64,000 bases of DNA from a virus. This document shows positions 1,359 through 57,716 of this stretch, in pieces. Position 1 is the stretch's first letter; each line of letters begins with the position of its first letter. The position numbers and the translations under genes were made by a program. The notes under the pieces are model-generated. The model saw only the letters and a program-made list of their open reading frames with translations. It had not been told where the DNA came from and ran no database searches. The stretch lies in UHGV virus genome UHGV-0033085; one strand, written 5' to 3'.

Positions 1359-1544
1359 ATGCTTAAAGAAGACTCATATCTACTAAAGGCGCTTGAAATG
1401 CGTGGCGTTGAACCTACAGTGAAAAACGCTCACGATATCTACCTTCAGTTTTCGCCAGAGCTGAAACAGCTCATAAATAAATATGGAGTGAATGACTCCA
1501 GCGTCAAAGCCATGATAGATGATGAATTAGACCATCTCATCTAA
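1359..1544 (+). CDS. hypothetical small protein
   Basis: ORF with GGAG 7 nt upstream of ATG. Confidence 0.5.
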   Translation: MLKEDSYLLKALEMRGVEPTVKNAHDIYLQFSPELKQLINKYGVNDSSVKAMIDDELDHLI

Positions 1545-1656
1545 CCAAACCGTTGATAATGGCGGTCACAATTTGATTCTTTTCTATAAGAATCCGTTGA
1601 TCGCCACTACTCCCCTTCCATGCCTGCAATCACATCCTTAAATATCAATAGGTTAT

Positions 1657-1684
1657 AGTTGTTTATACCAATAAGAAAACAACT
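1657..1684 (+). promoter_or_regulatory. split operator-like inverted repeat AGTTGTTT-N12-AAACAACT
   Basis: Same half-sites as the AAAACA-N3-TGTTTT palindrome but in tail-to-tail arrangement, at the start of the CA-rich unit. Confidence 0.35.
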
Positions 1685-1689
1685 GAATA

Positions 1690-2512
1690 ACAGATCAACG
1701 AAACGTCAACGCTTTCACCCGATTTGGTCTAAAAAATTGACGTTTTCACACATCACTTCTTATACTCGTAATCCTACGCAGCAGACAGCTCCACAGCGTC
1801 CAATTTTCACTACAGACGACTCAACACACTACCAACAAAAACACACGCTCAAAATCGCTCCCGTTACGTTACACAACCATATAAACAACTTATTTTCAGG
1901 CATAACAAAACAACTAAATAACACATATGCCACTCCCCAAAACAACCAACCTCTTTATGGCAGGCTACCGAAAAGACCCACCTCTTCTTCCCAGGCTACC
2001 GGACAGCCAACCTAACTTTCACAGGCAATCCGAAAACATTCATACGCGCGATACCCACGACACGCCATTCCCCAAACAGCGAAGAAACACCAGAATCACT
2101 GAAAACCCAACGAAGCCTGTAACCGCAAGGATTCTCTCAATCCCAAAAGACACGAAACATAACAATCACGGGAAACGCCATTACCCAATACACGAATAAC
2201 TACAAAAGCCCTTCACGCACTCCAGACAAACAACTCAAACACAACAACGAAAGGAATCGCCCACCTGCCATTACTCCATACATGGAGAAGAACAATCACC
2301 AAAACGACGAGAACACCCCATAGAAGAACCACCGCAAAACGAACGAAACCACATACACCGACAGAGAAAACAACACACCCAATTCACCAACAGAAATAGT
2401 CGCCGTATAGAACATTCTGGAAGGAGTGAGCATTAACGCCTATAGAGAGGTTGAGACAGATAAAACACAACATGCATAGCGAAGAAGCCAGGTATGTATA
2501 AGTGGGGAGGGA
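1690..2512 (+). ncRNA. candidate non-coding CA-rich, G-depleted transcript unit
   Basis: About 0.8 kb where the + strand is almost only A and C; lies between an operator-bearing promoter region and a terminator; overlapping ORFs are low-complexity without RBS. Confidence 0.3.
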
Positions 2513-2536
2513 AGGAGGGGTGTCGCCTCCTTTTTC
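2513..2536 (+). terminator. intrinsic terminator
   Basis: AGGAGG-ggtgtcg-CCTCCT hairpin followed by TTTTT. Confidence 0.55.
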
Positions 2537-2596
2537 GTATTTATTCAACTCCTGATTTTGTCCCCCGTAACACCCCTACGGTCAGCCTTCGGTCCA

Positions 2597-2733
2597 TACA
2601 GGGAAAAGGCTGCATCCCGCTACAGAAACGGCTGGGTTGCCTTCGGGGAACGGCTGGAGGTTTTCAGGGAAACGGTCGAGTTGCCTGTGTGGATTTCGGG
2701 AAAAGGCTCGATGCCGGTTCAGGAACGGCGGCG
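2597..2733 (+). repeat. iteron-like direct repeat array (six copies, consensus TTCAGGGAAACGGCTG)
   Basis: Copies starting about 2599, 2623, 2645, 2665, 2695, 2719; spacing 21-30 bp. Confidence 0.6.
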
Positions 2734-3066
2734 TACCGGTATAGCGTGAGGGAGAGTTTCGGCTACCCACCTGCAATGTGCGGGAAGAAGAGAGGCGCTC
2801 ACGTGCAGGCGGACTAACTTACCGTTGGACTCCCTTTGAATGCCCAACTACAGCGTAATTGTGCCAGAGAGTCAGCGGGTCACAATCGATTTCAGTAGGT
2901 TTTCGGGGAGAGGATTATTCTGCCCACCAGCCACCTTCGGCCACTAAATCAGAATAATGTAAAAAGTGTACTCGGTACTGAACCTGAAAACTCACTGCCA
3001 AAACCACATTCACCGGAATAAAATCCTTTTTCACCTGTGCGTTATTACGATAATAACACCAACAAG

Positions 3067-3081
3067 AAAACATGTTGTTTA
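3067..3081 (+). promoter_or_regulatory. operator palindrome AAAACAtgtTGTTTA downstream of a GATAAT -10
   Basis: Member of the AAGAAAACA-N3-TGTTT family; overlaps the first ATG of the downstream ORF. Confidence 0.45.
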
Positions 3082-3422
3082 AGAATTGCTTTATGTTTGC
3101 AAATATCGACATCAACCAAATCAAGAAATTGACTCAAAAAGAGTTTGACCAGTTCTATGAGCTGGAAGGTTGGTCTTCCACTCTGATTAATTCAAGATGG
3201 GTGCTGGAGCTGATGACTCGTGATGATGCACCTGCTTTGATGATCAGCGACCTGGGTGAAGATGCTGACTTTATGGATATGAGCGAATTTTGTGTGGACA
3301 CATACAACCGCAGCCAGAAGTACTACTTCACATGCGATAGCGAGAACGACGTGATTTCTAAGGTCTATCTTCACCTTGTCCAGCATTGGGACGTTCAGGA
3401 GTTTCTTGAAGTATTCGAGTAA
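3072..3422 (+). CDS. hypothetical acidic protein
   Basis: ORF track; start uncertain (ATG 3072 or 3096). Confidence 0.45.
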   Translation: MLFKNCFMFANIDINQIKKLTQKEFDQFYELEGWSSTLINSRWVLELMTRDDAPALMISDLGEDADFMDMSEFCVDTYNRSQKYYFTCDSENDVISKVYLHLVQHWDVQEFLEVFE

Positions 3423-5101: not shown

Positions 5102-6034
5102 ATGAAACCAGTATTTTTGGGACAAATTGACATTAGTGAATTGTTTTCAGTTAAAGATGGGTCCCAATATGACTGTGATTGCCTTGAACTTAATGGTCTT
5201 GAATATGAATACAGATTGGCTATTGTGAATGATGGTAAGAAGACATTTTCTGTCGAATGTTTTAAAAATACTTACTTTAAGCATGTGTTGAGAATAAGAC
5301 AGCGTGTGGAGATGTCAATTCGGGAAAACATCAAAAATAAATGTGAGTTTCTTGCGATTAAAAATGAAATAGATGCAATAAACTTTGTTACGTTCACTGA
5401 TAGTGGTCGATTGGCTATGCTGGAGCTATTTCATCTGATCGTTTCTAATAACAGTATAACAGAAGCCTTGATCAGTCTTTCAACTATAGTATCAAAAGAA
5501 AGAGAACACACTGGCGCTTTAATTGTAGAGAAGCTAGGTGGAATACTCGAGAAGATCAAAAATAAAGAGTTGATTATAGAATATGGCAAGGAAAGTAGAA
5601 AAAATAATTTACATTCAGCTTTTCGTTCCCCATATGTTGAGCGTTTAAATGGTTCGGCATCTTTTGTTAATTTAGAGTTTAATAGATTCTTTAGTTCTCT
5701 TTTTACAGAGTATGGAATTGTTATTGTGGAGGTAAATAATGAGAATGATGTGCCAAAAATCATAGTGCATTCGATGCCGGATATCCCTTTCAATGAGATT
5801 GAGAACAAACTGGAGATTTTAGACGATATAAATACAAAAAGCATGGAAGAACTCATAGAGTATCTGGCCGTAGATGCGGTAGCTATGGCTGATAATGATG
5901 TGTTTGGGGTTGGTGCACTGCATGAAGGCTATCTTGACGCCCTTGAACTTTACGGGACTGCTCGCTGGTTTCTGTCAGGATTAGTGGATGATGCGCCTTT
6001 ACTCATCAATACAGATTATTCTTATTCCAGTTGA
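5102..6034 (+). CDS. hypothetical protein (310 aa), AT-rich gene
   Basis: Long ORF with GAGG RBS; base composition clearly more AT-rich than flanks. Confidence 0.55.
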   Translation: MKPVFLGQIDISELFSVKDGSQYDCDCLELNGLEYEYRLAIVNDGKKTFSVECFKNTYFKHVLRIRQRVEMSIRENIKNKCEFLAIKNEIDAINFVTFTDSGRLAMLELFHLIVSNNSITEALISLSTIVSKEREHTGALIVEKLGGILEKIKNKELIIEYGKESRKNNLHSAFRSPYVERLNGSASFVNLEFNRFFSSLFTEYGIVIVEVNNENDVPKIIVHSMPDIPFNEIENKLEILDDINTKSMEELIEYLAVDAVAMADNDVFGVGALHEGYLDALELYGTARWFLSGLVDDAPLLINTDYSYSS

Positions 6035-6237: not shown

Positions 6238-6720
6238 ATGAACTTTATCGCTACTGTAAACGCACCCGCACATGGCAATATCGCTGTAACGTTCTCTGAC
6301 ATTGAAAAACGAGTACTTGGTGCATGGCGCGACAATGAGACGGTAGAACTGTCAGCACAAGAAAAATGCATTATTGCACGCGACATCATTGGCAATCGTC
6401 GTTACTCGCGGGTATTTGAGAAAGCGTATGTGGTAAATTCTGGATTCGGAACGTTCGTCTTTCCGGTGCGCTCCGGGCGATTCTGCCAGTCCAAGCTGAT
6501 TGAGTTCGCTACGCAGATTTCTGTCTGGATTAAAACTCAATCGTCGTTCAAATTTTCCGACGATGAAGCAGTATCGCAGGGGATGCGGATCGCCAACAAT
6601 GCGATTAAATGCAAAAACATTACGTATACCGCTGGCGTTGACACATGGAAACTGTTTTGCGCTAACTTTATGCTGAATGTATACGCAAGCAACCGCATCC
6701 ACATCCTTGATGGCGTGTAA
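6238..6720 (+). CDS. hypothetical protein
   Basis: ORF track with RBS. Confidence 0.55.
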   Translation: MNFIATVNAPAHGNIAVTFSDIEKRVLGAWRDNETVELSAQEKCIIARDIIGNRRYSRVFEKAYVVNSGFGTFVFPVRSGRFCQSKLIEFATQISVWIKTQSSFKFSDDEAVSQGMRIANNAIKCKNITYTAGVDTWKLFCANFMLNVYASNRIHILDGV

Positions 6721-6729
6721 CTGAGAAGA

Positions 6730-6750
6730 GGGCCAGAAACGGCCCTTTCT
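6730..6750 (+). terminator. intrinsic terminator
   Basis: GGGCC-agaaac-GGCCC hairpin plus TTTCT. Confidence 0.5.
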
Positions 6751-6769
6751 CTATAGCCACCAGCTGCCG

Positions 6770-6890
6770 CAGGGAAATTTTCAGAAACGGCGAGGAACGT
6801 ATTCATGAGCCGACGGGGAACGGCCAGGATTTTTTCGGGAAACGGCTGCATTCGCCTTTATGTAGAAAAACATCGGGAAGCTGGTGGAAT
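6770..6890 (+). repeat. second iteron-like array (CAGGGAAA / CAGAAACGGC / GGGGAACGGCC / GGGAAACGGCTG / GGGAAGCTGG)
   Basis: Same repeat family as 2597-2733. Confidence 0.5.
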
Positions 6891-6972
6891 CCAACCAGCG
6901 GTTGTCGGACAGGTGAGCGGGGAAAATCATGATGACTTTCGTCGCCTGAGACATCCAGATTTCTTTCGTAGC

Positions 6973-7017
6973 ATAATCACATACGTGATTAAGTGGTGTG
7001 ATTATGTGAAAAATCAC
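6973..7017. repeat. cluster of inverted GTGATT / AATCAC hexamers
   Basis: ATAATCACATACGTGATTAAGTGGTGTGATTATGTGAAAAATCAC; five hexamer copies in 45 bp. Confidence 0.4.
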
Positions 7018-7311
7018 GCGCACATAATACGCGAGCGGATACGGAACAAAACAAAATGCCGATCCGCGCCGACAAATAAACGCGGATCATAAAGCAAGAC
7101 TAAAAGCCAATGATTAACCATACTCTATAGCGCAATATAACGCGTTTTAAGCGCGTTAATATGTTAAGTAATGGGTATGTACTGGTAAGGATATAAAAGC
7201 GCGTCTATGGCGTTATTTTGGCGCTTATTTTTATGTTGTTGGAGTGAGTTAAAGACAATAAAAAACGCGCTAATGATGGCGCGTTATGGTGGGAGTATTG
7301 GAAACGAAAAA

Positions 7312-7330
7312 AGCGCCCATAGTGGGCGCT
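7312..7330 (-). terminator. terminator hairpin AGCGCCCA-tag-TGGGCGCT for the leftward operon
   Basis: Hairpin flanked by A-run and T-run just past the stop of 7336..7566; identical copy at 7820-7838. Confidence 0.55.
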
Positions 7331-7335
7331 CGATT

Positions 7336-7566
7336 TTATTTGTGTAAACTGATTTTAAATCCCATTTCTACAAACGCTTTTAACATTAAAAATATATCAG
7401 CGTCGTTCACGTCTGCTTTTTTTCGCTCCTGGTCGCTCAATAAGTCAATTTTGCGCGTCGTTTCATCTATAAGCTCGACTGCGCGCCCAGCGTAACCAGC
7501 GATCCCAGCGATGCGATTAACATAATATTCATTATGGACGTTAACGCCAGCGATAAGAACAAACAT
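7336..7566 (-). CDS. hypothetical protein
   Basis: ORF track; AAGGAG RBS. Confidence 0.5.
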   Translation of the reverse strand: MFVLIAGVNVHNEYYVNRIAGIAGYAGRAVELIDETTRKIDLLSDQERKKADVNDADIFLMLKAFVEMGFKISLHK

Positions 7567-7586: not shown

Positions 7587-7802
7587 TTAAATAGAATTTT
7601 GAAGTTTTCCGATTAATGCGCTTAAACGTAAGTATTCACGTTTGCGCTTGCAATCTCGCTTGCTGTTAAGCAAATCAGAAAACGTAAAATTTAATTGGTC
7701 GCGTTGCGCGATCAAATCATCGATTAATTCCAGTTTATAAGCGCGATACTTTGCGCGATACTTTGCGCGATACTTTGCGCGGATCTTGTCATAGCTGACC
7801 AT
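7587..7802 (-). CDS. hypothetical basic protein with AKYR tandem repeat
   Basis: ORF track 7587..7847 shortened to the ATG at 7800-7802, which has an AAGGAG RBS; upstream codons would read through a terminator hairpin. Confidence 0.45.
   Translation of the reverse strand: MVSYDKIRAKYRAKYRAKYRAYKLELIDDLIAQRDQLNFTFSDLLNSKRDCKRKREYLRLSALIGKLQNSI
7741..7782 (-). repeat. 12-bp tandem repeat GCGCGATACTTT x3.5 inside CDS
   Basis: Encodes the AKYRAKYRAKYR segment. Confidence 0.6.
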
Positions 7803-7819
7803 TTTTAAAGCTCCTTTAA

Positions 7820-7838
7820 AGCGCCCATAGTGGGCGCT
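7820..7838 (-). terminator. second copy of hairpin AGCGCCCATAGTGGGCGCT
   Basis: Immediately past the stop of 7851..8501. Confidence 0.5.
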
Positions 7839-7850
7839 TGATTCCATTAA

Positions 7851-8797: not shown

Positions 8798-9316
8798 TTA
8801 AAACGGAAGGATTCGTTCAACCCAATCGAAGAAAATAAGTATTTTTCTGCCGTCTTCCAACTTAAGTGTGACTAGACAGGCGTCAACGCCATCTGACGTT
8901 CCCTCAATTTCGCGACCGTCTGCCATGTAGACCCTTATAGATTTGCCGTTTTGGTAAGCCTGACGACATATCTTAAAAAAGTCACGACGTGATGGCTGAT
9001 TAACCATCTGTTCATTGTTTAGCGTTAGTCGACCTGTGAATGAAGTGTCAACCTCTTCTATGCCCGACTCAATTGTGCTAATGCGCTCAAGAGGGAGCCT
9101 TACACGATTTGTGTTGCTAAACGGATCTGGTGTGAGGTTCAGCTTATTTCTTGCGCTCAACAGCCCGTAGACATACATGCAAAACACTTGGCCGTCTTCG
9201 AGAGTGACTCTTACAGGAAATTGAGCACTCCGCCAGAAGAGCAAGGTGCGCTCAGCATGTTCGTAGTCTCGCGGCCAGACTTCAGCCGGTATGCCGTAGG
9301 TGATGTCTTTAACCAT
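8798..9316 (-). CDS. hypothetical protein
   Basis: ORF track. Confidence 0.5.
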   Translation of the reverse strand: MVKDITYGIPAEVWPRDYEHAERTLLFWRSAQFPVRVTLEDGQVFCMYVYGLLSARNKLNLTPDPFSNTNRVRLPLERISTIESGIEEVDTSFTGRLTLNNEQMVNQPSRRDFFKICRQAYQNGKSIRVYMADGREIEGTSDGVDACLVTLKLEDGRKILIFFDWVERILPF

Positions 9317-10331: not shown

Positions 10332-10706
10332 CTACTTATACCCTAATTCTTTACAGCTTTCTTCAAAAACCTCTTTAGGTAGGATATTTAGATCTACAAT
10401 AGTGTTGCTGTTCTTGGTTAACACGTCATTGTAAGGAATTTGTACCCATCTGTAACCTGTATACCCACCATATGAGTTAGTCGCATTTAGTTTGAAACAA
10501 TATGTATTGCTACCTTCAACGTGATCTGGGAATTTGTATTTAGCTGCATCCGGGGCCAGTAATTGTTTTTCTATAATATTTTTAATGTAATCTTGCTGAA
10601 CGGGCGTTAAAGGTTTGGCTACTGTATTTCCTATATAGAATGCCAAGAATGCCATAGAAAAAAATTGAATTTTTTTAGACTTCATCTTTTTAACCGTCTT
10701 TGACAA
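10332..10706 (-). CDS. secreted hypothetical protein
   Basis: Predicted N-terminal signal peptide; AT-rich. Confidence 0.5.
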   Translation of the reverse strand: MSKTVKKMKSKKIQFFSMAFLAFYIGNTVAKPLTPVQQDYIKNIIEKQLLAPDAAKYKFPDHVEGSNTYCFKLNATNSYGGYTGYRWVQIPYNDVLTKNSNTIVDLNILPKEVFEESCKELGYK

Positions 10707-10713
10707 TGAGAGT

Positions 10714-11289
10714 TTATGAGCGTTTGTTGAGCAGATCTACAATCAGCTTTTGAGGTGTATTTTCCTCTTTTGTCTTAGGTAATCCATTCTGAGGTAGCGT
10801 CGATAGTCTGTTCTTATCTCCTCTAGGTAACTCAAGCCTTTTCTTGATCTGCACAATAAGTTCCCATAGACTGTCTTCGTTCTCAACCTTTATAGAGTAG
10901 CCTACGCCACAATATGAATCACTTTTTAAGCGATTGTGAATTTTGAACGTATTGAAGTTTGAGCTTAACTGAATATATCCAGGGGTAATACCATCTATAT
11001 TTTCGATCACAGGGAGTATTTCTTTTATCTGGAAAGGGAAAATGACCAATGAATAATCATCTCGTCTTTCCTCATTGTCTGGTGAAATTAAATAAATGTA
11101 GTAAGGGTTGTTTTTTGAATAAGATTCTCGTAATGCTGAACTCTTTCCGAAGTAGAAACCTTTAGCGTGAATTTTATCTTTCGTTTCTTTCCCCCGTTGT
11201 ATCTGAATGTTACTTTCGCTAAGTGTCCCATTTGATACATATGAAGCTTTATCCAATATCGTGTGAAGTTGTGTATTTGAAAGAGCCAT
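10714..11289 (-). CDS. hypothetical protein
   Basis: ORF track; same leftward operon. Confidence 0.5.
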   Translation of the reverse strand: MALSNTQLHTILDKASYVSNGTLSESNIQIQRGKETKDKIHAKGFYFGKSSALRESYSKNNPYYIYLISPDNEERRDDYSLVIFPFQIKEILPVIENIDGITPGYIQLSSNFNTFKIHNRLKSDSYCGVGYSIKVENEDSLWELIVQIKKRLELPRGDKNRLSTLPQNGLPKTKEENTPQKLIVDLLNKRS

Positions 11290-11433
11290 TAGCTATCCCT
11301 TCGACCAAACTCAGCGATGAAGCCTACAAATATCATTCAGCCAATCAAGAATTTTTTTCAGCCGGAGGTGTGCACTTCAAAAAATGTGATGAATGTCACA
11401 TGCAGGTGCTCTCATACACCTGCATGTAGACTA

Positions 11434-12000
11434 TTAATCATTCAATAATCTATATTTTCTTTTGATTAAATCTTCACCTTTTTTGGTGAACACAAAACCA
11501 AATTGCGATTTTTTGTTCAGCCTAAGGACTCTGTTATCCAACGCATCGGTTGATGGAATCAATGTTTGATCATCTATCCAATTTAGTAGCGTAAGAAAGT
11601 TCAACAGCCTCAACGTTGTTGTGCGAAGCTCTTTCGATATATTTTCAATGCTGGCAATTCGTCTTTCTTTTTTCTCAGGTGGTACAGATAATTGTTCTTG
11701 AGGTTTCGTGGATAGATAATCAATTTCGTTTGCAGCATCGAATGATATGTGTGGCGTTATTTTGCTAAAAAAGCCTTTCGCTGACTCACTTGATAATAAA
11801 CCAGACCTATTCATATCGTTTGTTATTCTGTACAGGAGTGGACTGTGTTTCATTTCAGGATAACGTTGATAAAAGTTAAGCAATTCAAAAGCAGCATTAG
11901 CGCCAACAAGAAAATCAGAAGGATCGCTGACTTTCCAGAAAGAATGATTTTTCTTAGCGCCAGTGGTGTCAACAAATGATAATTCTTTTAACCAACTCAT
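11434..12000 (-). CDS. hypothetical protein
   Basis: ORF track 11434..12033; ATG at 12000 has an AAGGAG RBS. Confidence 0.5.
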   Translation of the reverse strand: MSWLKELSFVDTTGAKKNHSFWKVSDPSDFLVGANAAFELLNFYQRYPEMKHSPLLYRITNDMNRSGLLSSESAKGFFSKITPHISFDAANEIDYLSTKPQEQLSVPPEKKERRIASIENISKELRTTTLRLLNFLTLLNWIDDQTLIPSTDALDNRVLRLNKKSQFGFVFTKKGEDLIKRKYRLLND

Positions 12001-12065
12001 GATGTGCTCCTTTCTAACAAGTGAGCACATCATAGAATTAGTAGATAGGGGGTAAATATGAAATG

Positions 12066-12344
12066 TTACGGCAACCTGCTCAGTATTTCCTCTAAATCTT
12101 TTTTTGTCATATTGGAGTTTTCATAGATGCGCATGATTTTCTCACGCGTCTTAGCGGAAACCCCAACGGCAGATGTGACTTTGTCAAATTCAGCCATAGT
12201 CATCGTCTCCAGAATGGCATTGATAACTTCAGCCTTAGACATCTTGATTTTTTTCTCTTTGAGTTTTATTTGAAATTTTCCAAGTTTTTCATTGGCCTTA
12301 TCAGACAATGCCACTTGGCAATAAGTTGTTTTTTTTTCGCTCAT
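12066..12344 (-). CDS. hypothetical small lysine-rich protein
   Basis: ORF track; immediately downstream of the helicase gene. Confidence 0.45.
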   Translation of the reverse strand: MSEKKTTYCQVALSDKANEKLGKFQIKLKEKKIKMSKAEVINAILETMTMAEFDKVTSAVGVSAKTREKIMRIYENSNMTKKDLEEILSRLP

Positions 12345-12346
12345 AA

Positions 12347-13906
12347 CTAATCTCGTTTCAGAATTCCAAAATCGAATGCGCCATCAATAGGCAATACACC
12401 TTCCGCAAAGCCAGGTGTGGTGTCGATGATGTGTTTTCGCTCATAAGAGTGAGACAACAGGTATTTGTTGCTAGTGTCAATGAAATCAGTGATAAAACAC
12501 ACGTTTGCCTGATTCTTCTTGGCTCGTAAGCCACGACCGACACGCTGCCTCATTTCAACTTCTGCTTTCCCACCACCAGCAAGAATGACCGCACCAACGC
12601 TTGGCACATCAACACCGACATCCAGAATAGTCGAGCCTATTAAAACATCTATTTCTCCAGACGCTAAACTGTTCAGCTTTGCTTGCCTTGTCGCCTGGTT
12701 AGATTCCCCATAGATGAAATCAACTCTAAGACCTGACTCCTTCATCATCTCCATCAGGATTTGCCCGTGGCGTTTAAGACGAACCAGAGTCATGCAGTTG
12801 AGTGAATGTTGCTTATAAAGCAATGCCTCGCGCACTATGGCCTCGTTACGTCCCAAATTATACACGATCCCCAACTGATAAGCCTTTTGGTAGGCGGTGC
12901 TCATACCAACTCTAAAATTGAGGTGTTTGTTGGCAAGTTCGGCCTTGATTCTGGTCTCGTCTGGCTTGTAGGCAACTTTATGATAAAGGAAGTACGGCTT
13001 TGCCAGAATGCCTCGATCAATCAGGTACTTTTCTGTGACTTTAATTTCAATTCGACCGGCCACAGCCATCAGACGCATGTTGGCTTCTGTAGAATCCTTC
13101 ATGAACGGCGTGGCCGTAAGCGCCAGACGATAGTCTGCGTTCACACATAATCTGGCAATGTCATAGAAATTAGAGCCTGAAGACTCATGCGCTTCTTCCA
13201 GAATAAGTAGAGACACACTTGAAAGGAAGCGTTTCACTAGCTCCCGACGTTTGAGGTGGTAGCTCTTTTTATCTGGTGTTGCATCGCGTGGTGGTTCTTC
13301 AAGGAAACTTGCCAGAGTTTGAACTGTAGCGACGTTGATATGTCGTGATACCTGGAACTCACCCGAGCCAATGACTCCAACCTTTTGGTCCTTTAACCAC
13401 GGTTCGCCATTTTCGGCGCGGTAGTCGATGGATCTCTGGAAGTTTTCGGCCATTTGAAACATCAGAACAGAGCGGGTTGTTAAAAATAATGTCATTCGAC
13501 CGATACGTGCAGCTGCTTTGCAGGCAACGTTAGATTTCCCACCACCAGTAGCGATCTGCGCAATCATCATTCCCTCGCGAACTAGTGTTTCCACAGTCTG
13601 ATCCTGATACGCATAATCAGGATTGTATGGGAATGGGTTAACCGCCGGATTTGGCTTTCCAAGCGCCGGGGCTTTGTCTTTGCGGATATGAACACATTTG
13701 ATGCCCGCCTTGTTCAAGTTCGCCGCTACAGGCTTGGCAAATCCAGCAGGGAACGAGTTTTTACTCCAGTTGAACATCGTGCTTGTGCCCTTCCAGTCGC
13801 CAGTCTCGACTTCGTAGCTCAACATTTGCTGCACCAGTTGCTTTACCTTGTCATCTGCGCCAGAAATAAGCGCATTTACTGCGTTAGATACAATCCGAAC
13901 AGTCAT
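12347..13906 (-). CDS. superfamily 2 DEAD/DEAH-box helicase
   Basis: Motif I ATGGGKS, motif II LEEAHE, motif III TATP, motif VI QRVGRGLR. Confidence 0.8.
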   Translation of the reverse strand: MTVRIVSNAVNALISGADDKVKQLVQQMLSYEVETGDWKGTSTMFNWSKNSFPAGFAKPVAANLNKAGIKCVHIRKDKAPALGKPNPAVNPFPYNPDYAYQDQTVETLVREGMMIAQIATGGGKSNVACKAAARIGRMTLFLTTRSVLMFQMAENFQRSIDYRAENGEPWLKDQKVGVIGSGEFQVSRHINVATVQTLASFLEEPPRDATPDKKSYHLKRRELVKRFLSSVSLLILEEAHESSGSNFYDIARLCVNADYRLALTATPFMKDSTEANMRLMAVAGRIEIKVTEKYLIDRGILAKPYFLYHKVAYKPDETRIKAELANKHLNFRVGMSTAYQKAYQLGIVYNLGRNEAIVREALLYKQHSLNCMTLVRLKRHGQILMEMMKESGLRVDFIYGESNQATRQAKLNSLASGEIDVLIGSTILDVGVDVPSVGAVILAGGGKAEVEMRQRVGRGLRAKKNQANVCFITDFIDTSNKYLLSHSYERKHIIDTTPGFAEGVLPIDGAFDFGILKRD

Positions 13907-13970: not shown

Positions 13971-14669
13971 GTGGATTGTAGCAATAAAATGGACGTAAAA
14001 ATCACGATTTTGCAGGTTGATGTTGCCAACCTTCGCCCGAATACCTGGAACACAAATTCGGTTGGTGCGCAGAATTTTGAAAAACTGAAAGGTTCTATCG
14101 AAAAATTGGGCTTTTTTAAGCCAATTTTGGCTCGTGAACTTGAAGATGGATTTTTTGAAATCCTCGGCGGCGAACATCGCTGGCGTGCTGCTATTGAGCA
14201 AGGAATTTCAACGGTTCCGGTACTTTCTGTGGGCAAAATTAGCGATGTCGTGGCAAAACAGATGTCACTGGTGGACAACGAGCGATACGGTGAAGACGAC
14301 CAAATCGCATTGCAACGCTTCATTGAAGAAATTCAGTCAGAACTTGACTATCAACTGTCTGAAATCGCCCCGTATGACGACGAAATCTCGATGGTTTTAG
14401 CAAAAGAGGCTGCAATCGACCTTGAAGTACTGGAGGCGTTGTCTCGTGGTAGTGATGAGCCTGTCGATACCGACAAACGAGAGAAAACCGAACGTGTGGG
14501 GGCGGAACATCAGACCATGCGCTTCAAAGTAACTTTCGATGCGTCAGATCGTGTTGCAGAAACCATAAAAAACATCATCAAAGAGCAGGCTATTAACACC
14601 GGTAATGAAATGGAGAACGCTGGTGAGGCTCTGGTGTGGCTGGTCGACTACTACAAGGAGCGTATGTAA
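13971..14669 (+). CDS. ParB/Srx N-terminal domain protein
   Basis: GGEHRWRAA motif; start may be ATG 13989. Confidence 0.65.
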   Translation: MDCSNKMDVKITILQVDVANLRPNTWNTNSVGAQNFEKLKGSIEKLGFFKPILARELEDGFFEILGGEHRWRAAIEQGISTVPVLSVGKISDVVAKQMSLVDNERYGEDDQIALQRFIEEIQSELDYQLSEIAPYDDEISMVLAKEAAIDLEVLEALSRGSDEPVDTDKREKTERVGAEHQTMRFKVTFDASDRVAETIKNIIKEQAINTGNEMENAGEALVWLVDYYKERM

Positions 14670-15337
14670 TGACCAAAAAGTTTGAAATCGTATATCGCGA
14701 CCCGGCAGATCTTATTCCCTATGAGATGAATGCCAAAAAGCATGATGAACAGCAGATCAGAGATCTGGCCGCAGCCATTAAAAAGCGTGGATTTGACCAG
14801 CCAATTACGGTCGATAAGAACGACGTAATTATTACTGGCCACGGCCGCCGTGAGGCTGCAATTTTTGCTGGACTTGAGCGCGTACCGGTTATTGTTCGCG
14901 ATGATCTCAGTGATGACGAGGTTCGTGCGAAGCGCCTTGAAGATAACCGACTTGCCAGCATTGATTACGATGCAATTAAGCTACAGAAAGAGCTTGAGTC
15001 GCTTGTTCTGGACGATATCGAGGTTTTCGGCTTTGAAGAGCGTGAGTTGAATGTTCTCGTTGGCAGTATGACAGAAGAAATGGACACCGACTCGCTAGTT
15101 ATCGATCTTGGCGAAGAAACTAAACGACAGAAGGATGAACACACCGAGATCAGTCGTGAAGTTGCAGCGGAAGAAGTACGTGTTGTCGACGTATTGGGCT
15201 TTAAAACGCTCCCTGCTGGCTCTGCCATTGTTGTTGGTGATTTGCTTGCCCACATGGAAGAAATGACAGGAGAAAGCGGGGTAGACGCATTTGTGGCATA
15301 TGCGGAGAAGATCTCTTCCGGGGAGATGGCTGCATGA
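14669..15337 (+). CDS. ParB/Srx N-terminal domain protein (second copy)
   Basis: GHGRREAA motif; ATG overlaps upstream stop. Confidence 0.65.
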   Translation: MTKKFEIVYRDPADLIPYEMNAKKHDEQQIRDLAAAIKKRGFDQPITVDKNDVIITGHGRREAAIFAGLERVPVIVRDDLSDDEVRAKRLEDNRLASIDYDAIKLQKELESLVLDDIEVFGFEERELNVLVGSMTEEMDTDSLVIDLGEETKRQKDEHTEISREVAAEEVRVVDVLGFKTLPAGSAIVVGDLLAHMEEMTGESGVDAFVAYAEKISSGEMAA

Positions 15338-47335: not shown

Positions 47336-47604
47336 GTATTCCTCCTGATGGCCGTGATGTAGGAAGGCCATCAATCTCCTCTGTTCAAACTGAGTTTTCG
47401 ACTCAAAAATTACTTTAAAAGGCTATAGCCCATTACGTGTGCATTATCAAATTGTGTACGGCATATCACCGTACTTGTAATATAGAGGTCATTGTTACTT
47501 TTTTCAACAGACAAATACAAGCTATGTTTGCCAATTGTTAATCACAACCTACCATTTAACCTTTACACCGCAGCCGTAGGCATTTAGGCTATATCACATA
47601 TAAG

Positions 47605-47619
47605 AAAACAAATTGTTTC
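47605..47619 (+). promoter_or_regulatory. operator palindrome AAAACAaatTGTTTC upstream of parA
   Basis: AAAACA-N3-TGTTTT family; GATAAT 5 nt downstream. Confidence 0.45.
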
Positions 47620-47653
47620 AGACGATAATTATATACGCAAAGGGAACTCTCCA

Positions 47654-48322
47654 ATGACCAAGATCTTTGTGGTTGGCGGCACAAAGGGCGGGCCTGGCAA
47701 ATCCACCGTTGCCCAGCAAATTGCCGTTTGCCTGAAAGTCAAAAAGAAGAAGAAGGTTTATATCACTGATATAGATATTCAGCGCACGACAACGAGCTGG
47801 TGTGAAGACCGTCGACAGAACGAATACCTTGAGCTGATTCCTTTTGCATACGTTCAGGATGACATCATTAAGCACCTAAAATCGCTTCAGGGTAGAGCTG
47901 AGTTTGTAGTGGTAGATGCTGGTGGCTTCGACTCCGAAATTCAGCGACAAGCGATGCTGATGGCCGACGTTATCATTATCCCGCTTCGTCCTAAGCGTCG
48001 TGATTTGAAATCTCTGCGTGACATCGATCCTATTATCGACAATGTTCGCAATGTAAACGATAAAGTGAAGGTCCGCGCGGTCATGAACCAGTGCCCGGCT
48101 TTGCCATCACAAGTGTCTCGCATTCTGGCGGCTAAAGAGATTGTTGAGACGTTTGGAATCGAGTCTGCGCCAGTCAATCTATATAACCGCAACGTCTATG
48201 ATGATGCGGAAGAGTCTGGTCGTTCTATCTTTGAAATGACCGGTAGCGAGCGCGACAAAAAGGCGGAAGCCGAGTTTGAAGAATTTGTAGATTATCTGTT
48301 GAGTCTGGAGGAAGAAGAATAA
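47654..48322 (+). CDS. parA: ParA-family partition ATPase
   Basis: Deviant Walker A GGTKGGPGKST; small type Ib-like ParA. Confidence 0.85.
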   Translation: MTKIFVVGGTKGGPGKSTVAQQIAVCLKVKKKKKVYITDIDIQRTTTSWCEDRRQNEYLELIPFAYVQDDIIKHLKSLQGRAEFVVVDAGGFDSEIQRQAMLMADVIIIPLRPKRRDLKSLRDIDPIIDNVRNVNDKVKVRAVMNQCPALPSQVSRILAAKEIVETFGIESAPVNLYNRNVYDDAEESGRSIFEMTGSERDKKAEAEFEEFVDYLLSLEEEE

Positions 48323-48681
48323 TGTCCATGAAAATGGGTGACCTAGCAAAGCGCAAAGAGCCTGATGCACCGGCTAAGAACACAACTCCTTTGCGCCAAC
48401 CAGTCAGACCACAGGGACGCCCGACTCGTGGCAAAGAGAAAATTAAAAGCCGCACAATGTCACTGGAGGACGAATACTTCGAACTGCTGGAGATGATGAA
48501 GTTCATCCCTCGCTTCGAGAAGTTCACTCGTTCTGACGTGATTCGAGCAGCCATTTTCCATCTGGCAGAGAAGTCACCGCAGGAAATCGAGGACATCGTG
48601 AAATTGAATGAGGCGATCACCGCTGCCGATGTCACGATGCGTACCGATGAAATCAAACGAGAGTTGATGAAGAAAGGTTAA
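48322..48681 (+). CDS. ParG-like partition partner (putative)
   Basis: Small basic protein coupled to parA. Confidence 0.45.
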   Translation: MSMKMGDLAKRKEPDAPAKNTTPLRQPVRPQGRPTRGKEKIKSRTMSLEDEYFELLEMMKFIPRFEKFTRSDVIRAAIFHLAEKSPQEIEDIVKLNEAITAADVTMRTDEIKRELMKKG

Positions 48682-57469: not shown

Positions 57470-57544
57470 GATGGTGTAGCTCAGCGGTAGAGCAGTTGGC
57501 TGTTAACCAACTGGTCGGTGGTTCGAATCCACCCACCATCGCCA
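57470..57544 (+). tRNA. tRNA-Asn (anticodon GTT)
   Basis: Cloverleaf folded by hand: 7-bp acceptor, GCTC/GAGC D-stem, GTTGG/CCAAC anticodon stem, loop CTGTTAA, TTCGAAT T-loop, encoded CCA. Confidence 0.85.
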
Positions 57545-57549
57545 ATTTA

Positions 57550-57636
57550 GGGGAGTTAGTCCGTAGAGGTAGCGGTGTAGACTGTAAATCTACTGTCATG
57601 GCGACTCGGGTGGTTCGACTCCATCACTCCCCACCA
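57550..57636 (+). tRNA. tRNA-Tyr (anticodon GTA), type II
   Basis: Acceptor GGGGAGT/ACTCCCC, anticodon stem GTAGA/TCTAC with loop CTGTAAA, long variable arm, TTCGACT T-loop, encoded CCA. Confidence 0.8.
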
Positions 57637-57640
57637 AATT

Positions 57641-57716
57641 GCCGGTTTAGCTCAGTTGGTAGAGCGCCTGCCTTGTAAGCAGGATGTCAGCGGTTCGAGT
57701 CCGTTAACCGGCACCA
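57641..57716 (+). tRNA. tRNA-Thr (anticodon TGT)
   Basis: Acceptor GCCGGTT/AACCGGC, GCTC/GAGC D-stem, anticodon stem CCTGC/GCAGG with loop CTTGTAA, TTCGAGT T-loop, CCA. Confidence 0.85.

What the first reader, a model, noticed from the sequence alone, without database searches (positions are those of the whole stretch)
2597..2733. Iteron-like array of six direct repeats (TTCAGGGAAACGGCTG) with about 21-24 bp phasing, with a second array at 6770-6890
Six copies of a GGGAAA(A/C)GGCTG-centred repeat start near 2599, 2623, 2645, 2665, 2695 and 2719; a second cluster of four to five related copies lies at 6770-6890. Both clusters follow terminator hairpins and lie in non-coding DNA (the overlapping ORFs are spurious). 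Two-helical-turn phasing is typical of initiator-binding iterons, so these may be replication origin or incompatibility sites. Alternatively the repeated CAGGGA / CAGGAA cores resemble the GGA motifs of CsrB-type sponge RNAs, so a transcribed protein-titrating RNA is possible.
Basis: seen in the sequence. Interest (0 to 1): 0.62.

Follow-up and report, generated by a model that had tools for sequence, protein, structure and literature searches.

The report
Conserved phased repeat arrays, binder unknown
Two clusters of a short repeated DNA motif, spaced at whole turns of the double helix, are real and conserved in a large family of phage-plasmids of gut bacteria, but they are neither the plasmid's known replication repeats nor a CsrB-like RNA, and the protein that binds them is still unknown.

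Summary
Six copies of G(G/A)AA(A/C)GG(CTGG) end at 2609, 2631, 2653, 2675, 2706 and 2728 (spacing 22, 22, 22, 31, 22). A second same-strand array has full copies at 6784, 6817 and 6839, plus partial ones. The window is an SSU5/pHCM2-type phage-plasmid, 95% identical to Escherichia phage Cyrano. Both arrays are non-coding and conserved across E. coli, Salmonella, Klebsiella and Enterobacter relatives. Cores are invariant, spacers diverge, and spacings are almost always 22, 31, 33/34 or 44 nt, that is, whole helical turns.

They are not RepA iterons: in Cyrano the RepA (IncFIB) iterons flank repA about 34 kb away and carry a different motif. No rep gene, DnaA box or AT-rich unwinding element adjoins the arrays. 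They are not CsrB-like: there is no Rfam hit, no conserved fold, the motifs are not in hairpin loops, and published RNA-seq shows the region near the detection floor in lysogens.

Best reading (inference): phased binding sites for a backbone-encoded protein, acting on DNA in transcription-insulated pockets, most plausibly for partition or replication control. Candidate binders are the orphan ParA-associated small protein and a linked FljA-like tandem-Hfq protein; the latter would point to an RNA-level role. The function is unproven.

The parts
1737..1766 (+). Sigma-70-like promoter (TTGACG-18-TATACT) at the head of the conserved non-coding module that contains array 1 (context).
   Evidence: Matches 10 of 12 consensus positions. 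Window 1675-1775 is 71-89% identical, by 25-nt blocks, to seven relatives from other genera.
1773..2508 (+). A+C-rich, G/T-poor stretch upstream of array 1 (context; function unknown).
   Evidence: Composition is A 0.40, C 0.33, G 0.13, T 0.15. The 300-nt A+C maximum of 0.77 compares with a window mean of 0.50 +/- 0.04, and this is the only such region in 64 kb; the bias is kept in relatives. Predicted RNA MFE per nt is -0.146, against -0.296 +/- 0.03 elsewhere, and C minus G is +0.2. No frame is conserved.
2509..2535 (+). Terminator-like hairpin with a T run, 60-70 nt upstream of array 1.
   Evidence: Terminator scan. Fold energy -18.9 kcal/mol, z = -3.4. The hairpin is weak in the SSU5 clade.
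2599..2733 (+). Array 1: six phased direct repeats with consensus C(A/G)GGGAAA(A/C)GGCTGG. Cores are at 2603-2609, 2625-2631, 2647-2653, 2669-2675, 2700-2706 and 2722-2728.
   Evidence: Conserved in SSU5, pHCM2, Klebsiella and Enterobacter relatives, with invariant cores and divergent spacers. The same spacing pattern recurs in about 40 IMG/VR loci.
2740..3040 (+). Patchily conserved non-coding stretch between array 1 and the next operon; it contains a reverse Chi site at 2924-2931.
   Evidence: Conservation profile; Chi scan.
3041..3057 (.). Perfect palindrome GTTATTACGATAATAAC just before the downstream operon (likely operator; context).
   Evidence: Unique exact match in the window. Window 3050-3075 is 90% conserved.
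6723..6751 (+). Terminator-like hairpin after the 160-aa gene. Its loop, AGAAAC, is itself a copy of the core.
   Evidence: Fold energy -17.7 kcal/mol, z = -4.1; equivalent stable hairpins (-20.1 and -18.4 kcal/mol) form at the same place in SSU5 and a Klebsiella phage. By my reading of the alignments, the stem changes on both sides between clades (GGGCC/GGCCC versus GGGGC/GCCCC); this was not formally counted.
6770..6887 (+). Array 2: full cores at 6784-6790, 6817-6823 and 6839-6845. Partial copies are at 6772, 6794 and 6875. Same strand as array 1.
   Evidence: Conserved in SSU5 and Klebsiella phages and in 23 non-redundant IMG/VR sequences. The spacing 33/34 then 22 recurs in about 60 loci.
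6890..7335 (.). Conserved convergent intergenic region right of array 2, with terminator-like hairpins on both strands.
   Evidence: Terminator scan; alignment A3, mean identity 81%.

Best explanation
The two arrays are cis-acting sets of phased binding sites for a sequence-specific protein encoded by the conserved backbone of SSU5-type phage-plasmids.

Proposed mechanism. One protein unit binds each GGGAAA(A/C)GG(CTGG) core. Because the cores are 2, 3 or 4 helical turns apart, the bound proteins line up on one face of the DNA and can assemble cooperatively. The complex may also bridge the two co-oriented arrays, which lie 1.5-4.2 kb apart.

Setting. Each array sits in a pocket shielded from transcription. 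Array 1 lies between a terminator and a promoter that fires away from it. Array 2 lies between convergent terminators.

Most likely role. A DNA-maintenance function of the plasmid-prophage. The leading specific guess is a centromere-like partition or positioning site for the element's type Ib ParA and its small partner protein, which have no repeat array of their own. Replication control or a lytic origin comes second.

Shown: the repeats, their phasing, their conservation, their non-coding and non-RepA nature, and their low transcription in lysogens. Inferred: action at the DNA level, the binder and the function.
For: 1. Real, enriched and clustered repeats.

2. Selection acts on the cores and on the spacing, not on the spacer sequence. 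Cores are invariant from E. coli to Klebsiella while spacers differ. Among about 115 IMG/VR loci the core-to-core spacings are 22 (257 times), 31 (40), 33/34 (63) and 44 (4), with only a few at +/-1. These are all close to whole multiples of 10.5-11 bp. The observed length changes are a 22-nt unit loss, 31->22 in Klebsiella and 33<->34.

3. The region homologous to window 2496-2753 is found in 718 plasmid records and 12 phage records. It is better conserved than the flanking genes, which are replaced between clades.

4. Both arrays lie just after hairpin terminators. In LF82 RNA-seq the 'gene' over array 1 (CYRAN_104) reads 2.6-4.7 log2 (floor 2.32) in all five conditions, while its neighbours CYRAN_102 and CYRAN_105 read 6-9.2 and 4.4-7.8 (PMC9928086, S1 Table).

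5. There is no evidence of RNA structure.

6. The ParA gene (47654-48322) and its 119-aa partner have no repeat array beside them. The partner is 91-100% identical in 11 of the 12 array-bearing phage records and is expressed in lysogens. From its sequence I read it as a basic tail followed by a ribbon-helix-helix; this is my reading, not a tool result.
Against: 1. No binder has been identified.

2. The proteins encoded between the arrays have no DNA-binding family hit. The 160-aa protein next to array 2 has a confident model (pLDDT 85) but no structural relative.

3. Type Ib centromeres normally adjoin their par operon; here the operon is about 45 kb away, and the motif does not occur upstream of parA.

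4. The arrays are G+C-rich (0.56-0.60).

5. Both arrays are co-oriented with transcription and sit a fixed short distance after hairpins, which would also suit an RNA-level element.

6. A conserved RNA-binding-type protein (FljA-like, tandem Hfq fold) is encoded 2 kb from array 2.

7. The phasing argument rests on few independent indel events.

8. The RNA-seq data come from lysogens only.
Confidence: 0.45

Rival explanations
1. RNA-level element. The arrays are transcribed, either as read-through from the upstream promoter and A+C-rich leader or as the 3' UTR of the inter-array operon. Their G(G/A)AAAC cores are then bound by an RNA-binding protein of the phage-plasmid. The best candidate is the linked FljA-like tandem-Hfq protein, which would silence, destabilise or be titrated by these transcripts. 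This is not a CsrB-family RNA.
For: 1. Both arrays are on the strand of the flanking operons and directly follow hairpins; one core sits in a hairpin loop.

2. The hairpin before array 1 is weak and lacks a T run in the SSU5 clade, so read-through is plausible there.

3. A full-length PF03614 (Flag1_repress/FljA) protein (E = 7e-69) is encoded at 8798-9316(-). Its model has two alpha-beta5 modules, and all 50 matches listed are Hfq (probability 1.00, TM-score to target 0.66-0.82).

4. This protein is present about 2 kb from array 2 in all 12 array-bearing phage records, including six from Klebsiella. To my knowledge Klebsiella pneumoniae is non-flagellate, so the protein must have another target there.

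5. FljA blocks translation of fliC mRNA and leads to its rapid degradation (stated in PMC4122451; PMC2652032). Low RNA levels over the arrays would therefore be compatible with this model.

6. The Salmonella fliC leader holds GAGAAACCGTGG, a marginal match to the array matrix (0.037 expected per leader).
Against: 1. There is no conserved secondary structure or covariation, and the fold is not more stable than shuffles.

2. Cores are not systematically in loops, and the CAG..CUG mini-stem is only weakly above shuffles, with the middle pair formed in 37% of units.

3. Conservation of the exact spacing in whole-helical-turn quanta has no obvious RNA rationale.

4. The region is near the RNA-seq floor in lysogens, while the FljA-like gene is expressed.

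5. E. coli and Enterobacter fliC leaders do not match the array matrix. The 12-nt identity between array 2 and the E. coli fliC leader is not the best hit of that leader in the window (score 24 versus 26).

6. No promoter-like site lies between the hairpin and array 1.
Confidence: 0.27
2. A second (lytic) replication origin or replication-control locus that uses an unidentified initiator. The two site clusters would cooperate at a distance, as ori and crr do in satellite phage P4. The promoter-driven, strongly skewed A+C-rich stretch upstream might supply transcriptional activation or priming.
For: 1. The 22-bp periodicity is that of classical iterons; the Rep_3 origin in L113, used as a control, has the same period.

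2. There are two co-oriented clusters 1.5-4.2 kb apart.

3. A conserved promoter and a unique skewed region adjoin array 1.

4. Cyrano's annotation lists its own helicase, primase, polymerase subunits and T4-like UvsW, UvsX-type and UvsY-type proteins. In T4, to my knowledge, such proteins go with transcript-primed origins.
Against: 1. There is no DnaA box (<=1 mismatch) in 1500-3200 or 6600-7400, and the nearest AT-rich 40-mers are more than 300 bp from either array.

2. The arrays are G+C-rich.

3. There is no adjacent initiator gene, and the helicase and primase genes are about 45 kb away.

4. The repeats are much more degenerate than in the control origin.

5. Cumulative GC skew shows no turning point at the arrays beyond the local A+C-rich stretch.
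Confidence: 0.13
3. Classical RepA iterons: an origin or an incompatibility and copy-control determinant of the plasmid's own IncFIB replicon.
For: Phased direct repeats with a 22-bp period. Relatives are typed IncFIB.
Against: 1. In Cyrano (95% identical to the window) repA lies at 60.6-61.7 kb. It is flanked by more than 15 copies of a different motif (CTCTCTATAGTGGATA and variants) at 21-bp spacing.

2. The arrays are about 34 kb from repA, and the genome-wide scan found no cluster of the array motif near repA.
Confidence: 0.03
4. CsrB/RsmZ-type sponge RNA that titrates host CsrA.
For: Several copies contain CAGGGA, CGGGA or CAGGA.
Against: 1. No Rfam match, even at E<=5.

2. GGA motifs are not displayed in hairpin loops.

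3. Copy 2 (CAGAAACGG) has no GGA.

4. The constrained positions (AAA[A/C]GG) extend beyond GGA.

5. No promoter-like site lies between the hairpin and array 1, and the transcript is near the detection floor in lysogens.
Confidence: 0.03

Closest known systems
Iterons of theta-replicating plasmids (P1 incC/incA, F, R6K gamma, Rep_3 plasmids)
   Same: Direct repeats in one orientation with a period of about 22 bp (two helical turns). There are two clusters on the same replicon. The arrays vary by whole units.
   Different: The motif differs from the element's own RepA iterons. There is no adjacent rep gene, DnaA box or AT-rich unwinding element. Only a 9-13-nt core is conserved, whereas a real Rep_3 origin (L113) has near-identical 22-mers. 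The arrays are G+C-rich.
Bipartite ori/crr of satellite phage P4; long-range iteron clusters of R6K (from my own knowledge, not tested here)
   Same: Two clusters of short, co-oriented initiator-type sites a few kb apart on a phage-related replicon.
   Different: No alpha-type primase-helicase initiator or any other candidate is linked to the arrays. The gene content between the arrays is variable cargo.
Plasmid centromeres made of phased direct repeats (R1 parC, pB171 parC1/parC2, pSK41 parC, dispersed sop sites of N15) (from my own knowledge)
   Same: Phased direct-repeat arrays, sometimes two arrays or dispersed sites, bound by small ribbon-helix-helix or other centromere-binding proteins. 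Here a type Ib ParA and a small partner exist without an adjacent array.
   Different: The arrays are about 45 kb from parA, and the motif is absent from the parA promoter region. No binding data exist.
CsrB/RsmZ sponge RNAs
   Same: Multiple GGA-containing repeats in a non-coding stretch.
   Different: No family match, motifs not in hairpin loops, no promoter-like site directly upstream of array 1, and very low RNA level.
Type III toxin-antitoxin RNA repeats (ToxI) (from my own knowledge)
   Same: Short tandem non-coding repeats.
   Different: ToxI-type repeats are near-identical, lie between a promoter and a terminator, and directly precede a toxin gene. Here the repeats are degenerate, follow a terminator, and the next gene has its own promoter and palindrome.

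Membership tests
Iteron-type replication origin or incompatibility locus (RepA/Rep_3 type) | Tandem direct repeats of about 17-22 bp at a spacing of about two helical turns | tested here: met
   Spacing is 22, 22, 22, 31, 22 in array 1 and 33, 22 in array 2. The 22-nt spacing occurs 257 times across relatives.
Iteron-type replication origin or incompatibility locus (RepA/Rep_3 type) | Repeats match the sites of the replicon's initiator | tested here: not met
   The RepA-flanking iterons in Cyrano are CTCTCTATAGTGGATA-like at 21-bp spacing. The genome-wide scan finds no cluster of the array motif there.
Iteron-type replication origin or incompatibility locus (RepA/Rep_3 type) | Initiator (rep) gene adjacent to the repeats | tested here: not met
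   Flanking ORFs have no Rep family hit in Pfam, PHROGs or NCBIfam. repA is about 34 kb away in Cyrano. In the control locus L113 the Rep_3 gene lies about 90 bp after the last iteron.
Iteron-type replication origin or incompatibility locus (RepA/Rep_3 type) | Adjacent AT-rich unwinding element and DnaA boxes | tested here: not met
   No TTATCCACA (<=1 mismatch) occurs in 1500-3200 or 6600-7400, and the nearest AT-rich 40-mers are more than 300 bp from either array.
Iteron-type replication origin or incompatibility locus (RepA/Rep_3 type) | Supports autonomous replication or exerts incompatibility when cloned | not testable with these tools
   Needs cloning and plasmid-stability assays.
CsrB/RsmZ-type protein-sponge RNA | Match to the curated RNA families | tested here: not met
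   No Rfam hit at gathering score or at E<=5 over 1500-3200. Only unrelated weak hits occur in 7207-7400.
CsrB/RsmZ-type protein-sponge RNA | GGA motifs displayed in the loops of short hairpins | tested here: not met
   One of 6 cores (array 1) and 2 of 4 (array 2) lie in hairpin loops of the MFE fold. Mean unpaired probability is 0.49 for cores and 0.38 for spacers. The consensus fold has no covariation.
CsrB/RsmZ-type protein-sponge RNA | Discrete, abundant transcript with its own promoter and terminator | tested here: not met
   No promoter-like site lies between the hairpin and array 1. CYRAN_104 reads 2.6-4.7 log2 against a floor of 2.32 in five lysogen conditions. Induced cells were not examined.
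Plasmid partition centromere (type Ib ParA with a small centromere-binding protein) | Array of phased short repeats | tested here: met
Plasmid partition centromere (type Ib ParA with a small centromere-binding protein) | Located next to the par operon, usually doubling as its operator | tested here: not met
   parA is at 47654-48322, about 45 kb from array 1. The motif is not found upstream of parA. The par operon has no repeat array of its own.
Plasmid partition centromere (type Ib ParA with a small centromere-binding protein) | Bound by the partner protein; stabilises a test plasmid in cis | not testable with these tools
   Needs EMSA or ChIP and stability assays.
Type III toxin-antitoxin (ToxIN-like) | Near-identical tandem RNA repeats between a promoter and a terminator, directly upstream of the toxin gene | tested here: not met
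   The repeats are degenerate, follow a terminator, and lie 340 nt from the next ORF, which has its own promoter-like site and palindrome.

The most novel reading that the evidence does not exclude
The arrays are the in-cis targets of the phage-plasmid's own FljA-family protein. That protein is predicted here to consist of two Hfq/Sm-like domains in tandem, and it is conserved even in Klebsiella elements, whose hosts (to my knowledge) have no flagellin to repress. On this reading, a backbone-encoded Hfq-like ring protein recognises the multimerised G(G/A)AAAC motifs, on RNA or on DNA, to silence or gate an early or accessory region. Together with the adjacent roughly 750-nt G/U-poor unstructured transcript, the arrays would form a roughly 1.5-kb non-coding control module of a kind not yet described. 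The flagellar phase-variation role of FljA would then be a derived use of a mobile-element regulator.
Probability: 0.12. Interest if true: 0.75.

Novelty: new variant of a known kind. Interest (0 to 1): 0.5.

Why it matters
SSU5/pHCM2-type phage-plasmids are widespread in E. coli, Klebsiella, Salmonella and Enterobacter. Here 718 plasmid records share this region, and published work cited below shows that elements of this kind carry resistance genes.

Their lysogeny, partition and lytic-replication controls are largely unmapped. In the papers held here I found no description of these arrays or of the surrounding 1.5-kb non-coding module, although the key FljA papers could not be read.

A conserved, phased binding-site array that is not part of the RepA replicon marks an unassigned cis-acting function. 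If it proves to be the missing centromere, a second origin or the target of the FljA-like Hfq-type protein, it gives three things: a handle for curing or incompatibility strategies, a way to type these elements, and a target for a protein family known only from flagellar phase variation.

If no binder or phenotype is found, it remains a well-conserved curiosity.

Tried and rejected
1. RepA iterons. Rejected: different motif and location.

2. Coding repeat. Rejected: a 22-nt unit, a one-unit deletion in PhiR41_1, no conserved frame and no family for the overlapping ORFs.

3. Known RNA family. None found.

4. Structured RNA. z = +0.83; the RNAalifold covariation term is +0.27; the mini-hairpin CAG..CUG is only weakly above shuffles.

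6. Origin signatures. No DnaA box, no IHF site beside the arrays, no GATC cluster and no AT-rich element next to the arrays. Genome-wide GC skew is uninformative.

7. Chi-related function of the GCTGG part. Chi sites are enriched throughout the window, so this was not pursued.

8. Similarity of array 2 to the E. coli fliC leader (12-nt identity). It is not the top hit in an unbiased scan, and the array matrix does not match E. coli or Enterobacter leaders.

9. An IS100 in a 52-kb derivative plasmid first looked like a disruption of array 1. It actually lies about 75 bp downstream, and only unit 6 is deleted, so it says little.

10. Literature. No description was found of these repeats or of a lytic origin or centromere in SSU5-type elements. 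The papers on the FljA operator were not available.

11. Sigma-54 promoter, ops/RfaH, KOPS, CRISPR-repeat mimic and transposase end-site ideas were considered from memory. They were dropped because the sequences do not fit or are not conserved.

Full report
**What the window is.** The region around the finding is 95.6% identical to Escherichia phage Cyrano (OV696614, the pLF82 phage-plasmid). It is 86-94% identical to three other E. coli phage-plasmid records. Cyrano's annotation shows an SSU5-like siphovirus genome with plasmid functions. Its RepA lies at 60.6-61.7 kb and a ParA at 29.3 kb, and the finding maps to about 95.3 and 99.0 kb. Window position 2300 corresponds to Cyrano 95022, so the window runs over the record's end into the structural genes.

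**The observation.** Reading the sequence and scanning with a degenerate core and a position matrix confirm six same-strand copies. Their cores start at 2603, 2625, 2647, 2669, 2700 and 2722, giving spacings of 22, 22, 22, 31 and 22. The second array has full cores at 6784, 6817 and 6839, partial copies at 6772, 6794 and 6875, and one core in the loop of the preceding hairpin (6736).

- The 12-mer with up to 2 mismatches occurs 18 times, against 3.8 +/- 1.9 in shuffles.
- The whole Cyrano genome has only these two clusters.
- Both arrays follow stable hairpins.
- The repeats are degenerate outside a 9-13-nt core, which is why Tandem Repeats Finder missed them.

**Non-coding.** The 22-nt unit is not a multiple of three, and PhiR41_1 lacks exactly one unit. 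RefSeq annotation leaves about 1.5 kb empty at this place in relatives from four genera. The many open frames in the G/T-poor stretch are not conserved between clades. The overlapping ORFs match no phage protein family.

**Conservation.**
- Sensitive DNA search finds the region in 12 phage and 718 plasmid records, from Klebsiella, Escherichia, Enterobacter, Salmonella, Citrobacter and others. The part most widely shared is window 2496-2753, the hairpin plus array 1.
- Alignments show invariant cores and diverged spacers.
- A pattern scan of IMG/VR returned 115 loci, mostly contigs of about 100-110 kb.
- Across those loci the core spacings are 22 (257 times), 31 (40), 33/34 (63) and 44 (4), with a handful at +/-1.
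- The two arrays are always on the same strand, 1.5-4.2 kb apart. The genes between them vary, and the shortest version keeps the 160-aa gene that always precedes array 2.
- The whole stretch 1550-3075 is a conserved non-coding module. It is better conserved than the neighbouring genes, which are swapped between clades.

**Testing the iteron or origin reading.**
- In Cyrano, repA is flanked by more than 15 copies of a different motif (CTCTCTATAGTGGATA and variants) at 21-bp spacing. The finding's arrays are therefore not RepA sites.
- Neither array has a rep gene beside it, nor a DnaA box or an adjoining AT-rich element.
- The arrays are G+C-rich, and GC skew gives no origin signal.
- A control turned up by chance in the IMG/VR scan. 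Locus L113 has an AT-rich stretch, a DnaA box and seven near-identical 22-bp repeats, followed about 90 bp later by a Rep_3 initiator gene. The finding shares only the period with that textbook origin.

**Testing the RNA reading.**
- There is no Rfam match, even at E<=5.
- The 500-nt region folds no better than shuffles (z = +0.83).
- The consensus fold of ten relatives is weak and has no covariation.
- Cores are not systematically in hairpin loops, and a possible CAG..CUG mini-stem is barely above shuffles.
- In the published LF82 transcriptomes (PMC9928086, S1 Table) the 'genes' over the A+C-rich stretch and array 1 sit at or near the floor in all five lysogen conditions, while neighbours are expressed.
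- A CsrB-type sponge is therefore not supported. Transcription during lytic growth has not been examined.

**Why I favour a DNA-level binding array.** The quantities under selection are the core and the distance between cores. The allowed distances (22, 31, 33/34, 44) are all close to whole numbers of helical turns. The observed length changes come in whole units or about one turn. Both arrays also sit where transcription should not cross them. Array 1 lies after a terminator and before a promoter-plus-palindrome that fires away. Array 2 lies between convergent terminators. This is the usual setting of centromeres and origins. It remains an inference, and the number of independent indel events is small.

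**Candidate binders.**
- *The ParA partner.* The type Ib ParA (47654-48322) is followed by a 119-aa protein. I read its sequence as a basic tail plus a ribbon-helix-helix; no tool confirmed this. No repeat array lies beside this operon. The small protein is 91-100% conserved in 11 of the 12 array-bearing phages, and both genes are expressed in lysogens. Against this candidate, the arrays are about 45 kb away and the motif is absent from the parA promoter.
- *The FljA-like protein.* A full-length FljA-family protein (PF03614, E = 7e-69) is encoded at 8798-9316(-), about 2 kb from array 2. It is present in all 12 phage records, including six from Klebsiella. Its model consists of two alpha-beta5 modules, and all 50 matches listed are Hfq. 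FljA is known to block fliC mRNA translation.
- *The fliC lead.* I tested whether the arrays resemble fliC leaders. A 12-nt identity with the E. coli leader is not the best hit of that leader in the window. The array matrix matches only the Salmonella leader, and only marginally. This stays a lead, not a finding.
- *The 160-aa protein before array 2.* It has a confident model but no structural relative.

**Verdict.** The repeats are real, conserved and almost certainly functional. They belong to the general kind 'phased protein-binding repeat arrays'. They fail the membership tests for RepA iterons or origins and for CsrB-type RNAs.

- DNA-level nucleoprotein site for plasmid-prophage maintenance: about 0.45.
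- RNA-level target of a backbone RNA-binding protein: about 0.27.
- Second (lytic) origin: about 0.13.

I found no description of them in the papers I could search.

Noticed in passing
window 1650-2508 (+): An A+C-rich, G/T-poor stretch of about 750 nt (A 0.40, C 0.33, G 0.13, T 0.15), unique in the 64-kb window and about 6.6 SD above the mean A+C. It is preceded by a conserved sigma-70-like promoter (1737-1766) and ends at the 2509-2535 hairpin. As RNA it would be almost unstructured (MFE per nt -0.146 versus -0.296) and C>G throughout, like a very long Rho-loading zone. No frame is conserved, and it is silent in LF82 lysogens. The composition bias is kept in SSU5, pHCM2 and Klebsiella relatives.
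   Followed up: partly
window 8798-9316 (-): The FljA-family protein (PF03614, 'repressor of phase-1 flagellin') is predicted to be two Hfq/Sm-like domains in tandem (pLDDT 76; all 50 Foldseek matches listed are Hfq). It is a backbone gene of every array-bearing phage-plasmid examined, including those of Klebsiella, which to my knowledge is non-flagellate. Its function there cannot be flagellin repression.
   Followed up: partly
window 6757-6764 (-), 6880-6887 (+), 2924-2931 (-): Chi sites (GCTGGTGG) are about ten-fold enriched in the window (15 found, about 1.5 expected). Array 2 is bracketed by an inverted pair, each oriented to stop RecBCD as it approaches the array. Both sites are kept in most relatives, although the right-hand one sits at different positions. 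A reverse Chi downstream of array 1 is also conserved across clades.
   Followed up: partly
window 3041-3057: Perfect palindrome GTTATTACGATAATAAC overlapping the promoter-like region of the operon that starts at 3072. It is 90% conserved across genera and is the only exact copy in the window. It is probably an operator.
   Followed up: partly
window 47370-48681: A type Ib ParA (222 aa) is translationally coupled to a 119-aa protein that Cyrano's annotation calls 'RelE/ParE toxin'. By its sequence the small protein looks like a basic tail plus a ribbon-helix-helix centromere-binding protein. No direct-repeat centromere lies nearby, only a palindrome, GTACGGCATATCACCGTAC, at 47456-47474.
   Followed up: partly
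window 5102-6034 (+): A 310-aa ORF with very low G+C (about 0.32) lies between the two arrays. It has no Pfam, PHROG or NCBIfam family, and Cyrano's annotation shows no ORF of comparable size between its arrays. The inter-array segment behaves as a cargo hotspot, 1.5-4.2 kb long in relatives.
   Followed up: no
window 6806-6817 versus E. coli K-12 fliC leader (L134): The 12-nt identity TGAGCCGACGGG, together with CAGGG and ACGGCGA in the same order, links array 2 to the fliC 5' leader. The A/C variant CCGA(A/C)GGG differs in parallel between E. coli-type and Enterobacter-type leaders and between phage-plasmid clades. The similarity is not significant in an unbiased scan.
   Followed up: yes
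L113 8250-9450 (IMG/VR contig 3300-series, unrelated phage): A textbook Rep_3 origin: a DnaA box, an AT-rich stretch and seven near-identical 22-bp iterons (CAAGGGAAAAGGTTACCACGCA), followed about 90 bp later by the Rep_3 gene. It shares the GGGAAAAGG core by chance of the search pattern and was useful as a positive control.
   Followed up: yes
window 7741-7781: A perfect 12-nt tandem repeat, GCGCGATACTTT x 3.4, inside the minus-strand ORF 7587-7847.
   Followed up: no
window 13971-15337 (+): Two consecutive ParB_N-domain proteins are followed by an ABC-type ATPase, upstream of the terminase genes. Their role is unknown.
   Followed up: no
window 57470-57713 (+): A cluster of three tRNA genes (Rfam scores 75.5, 41.6 and 74.9 bits).
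   Followed up: no
L132 (pRHB27-C06_3, CP057431.1) 10380-12960: A 52-kb IncFIB derivative keeps both arrays. It has lost unit 6 of array 1 and carries an IS100 about 75 bp downstream of that array.
   Followed up: yes
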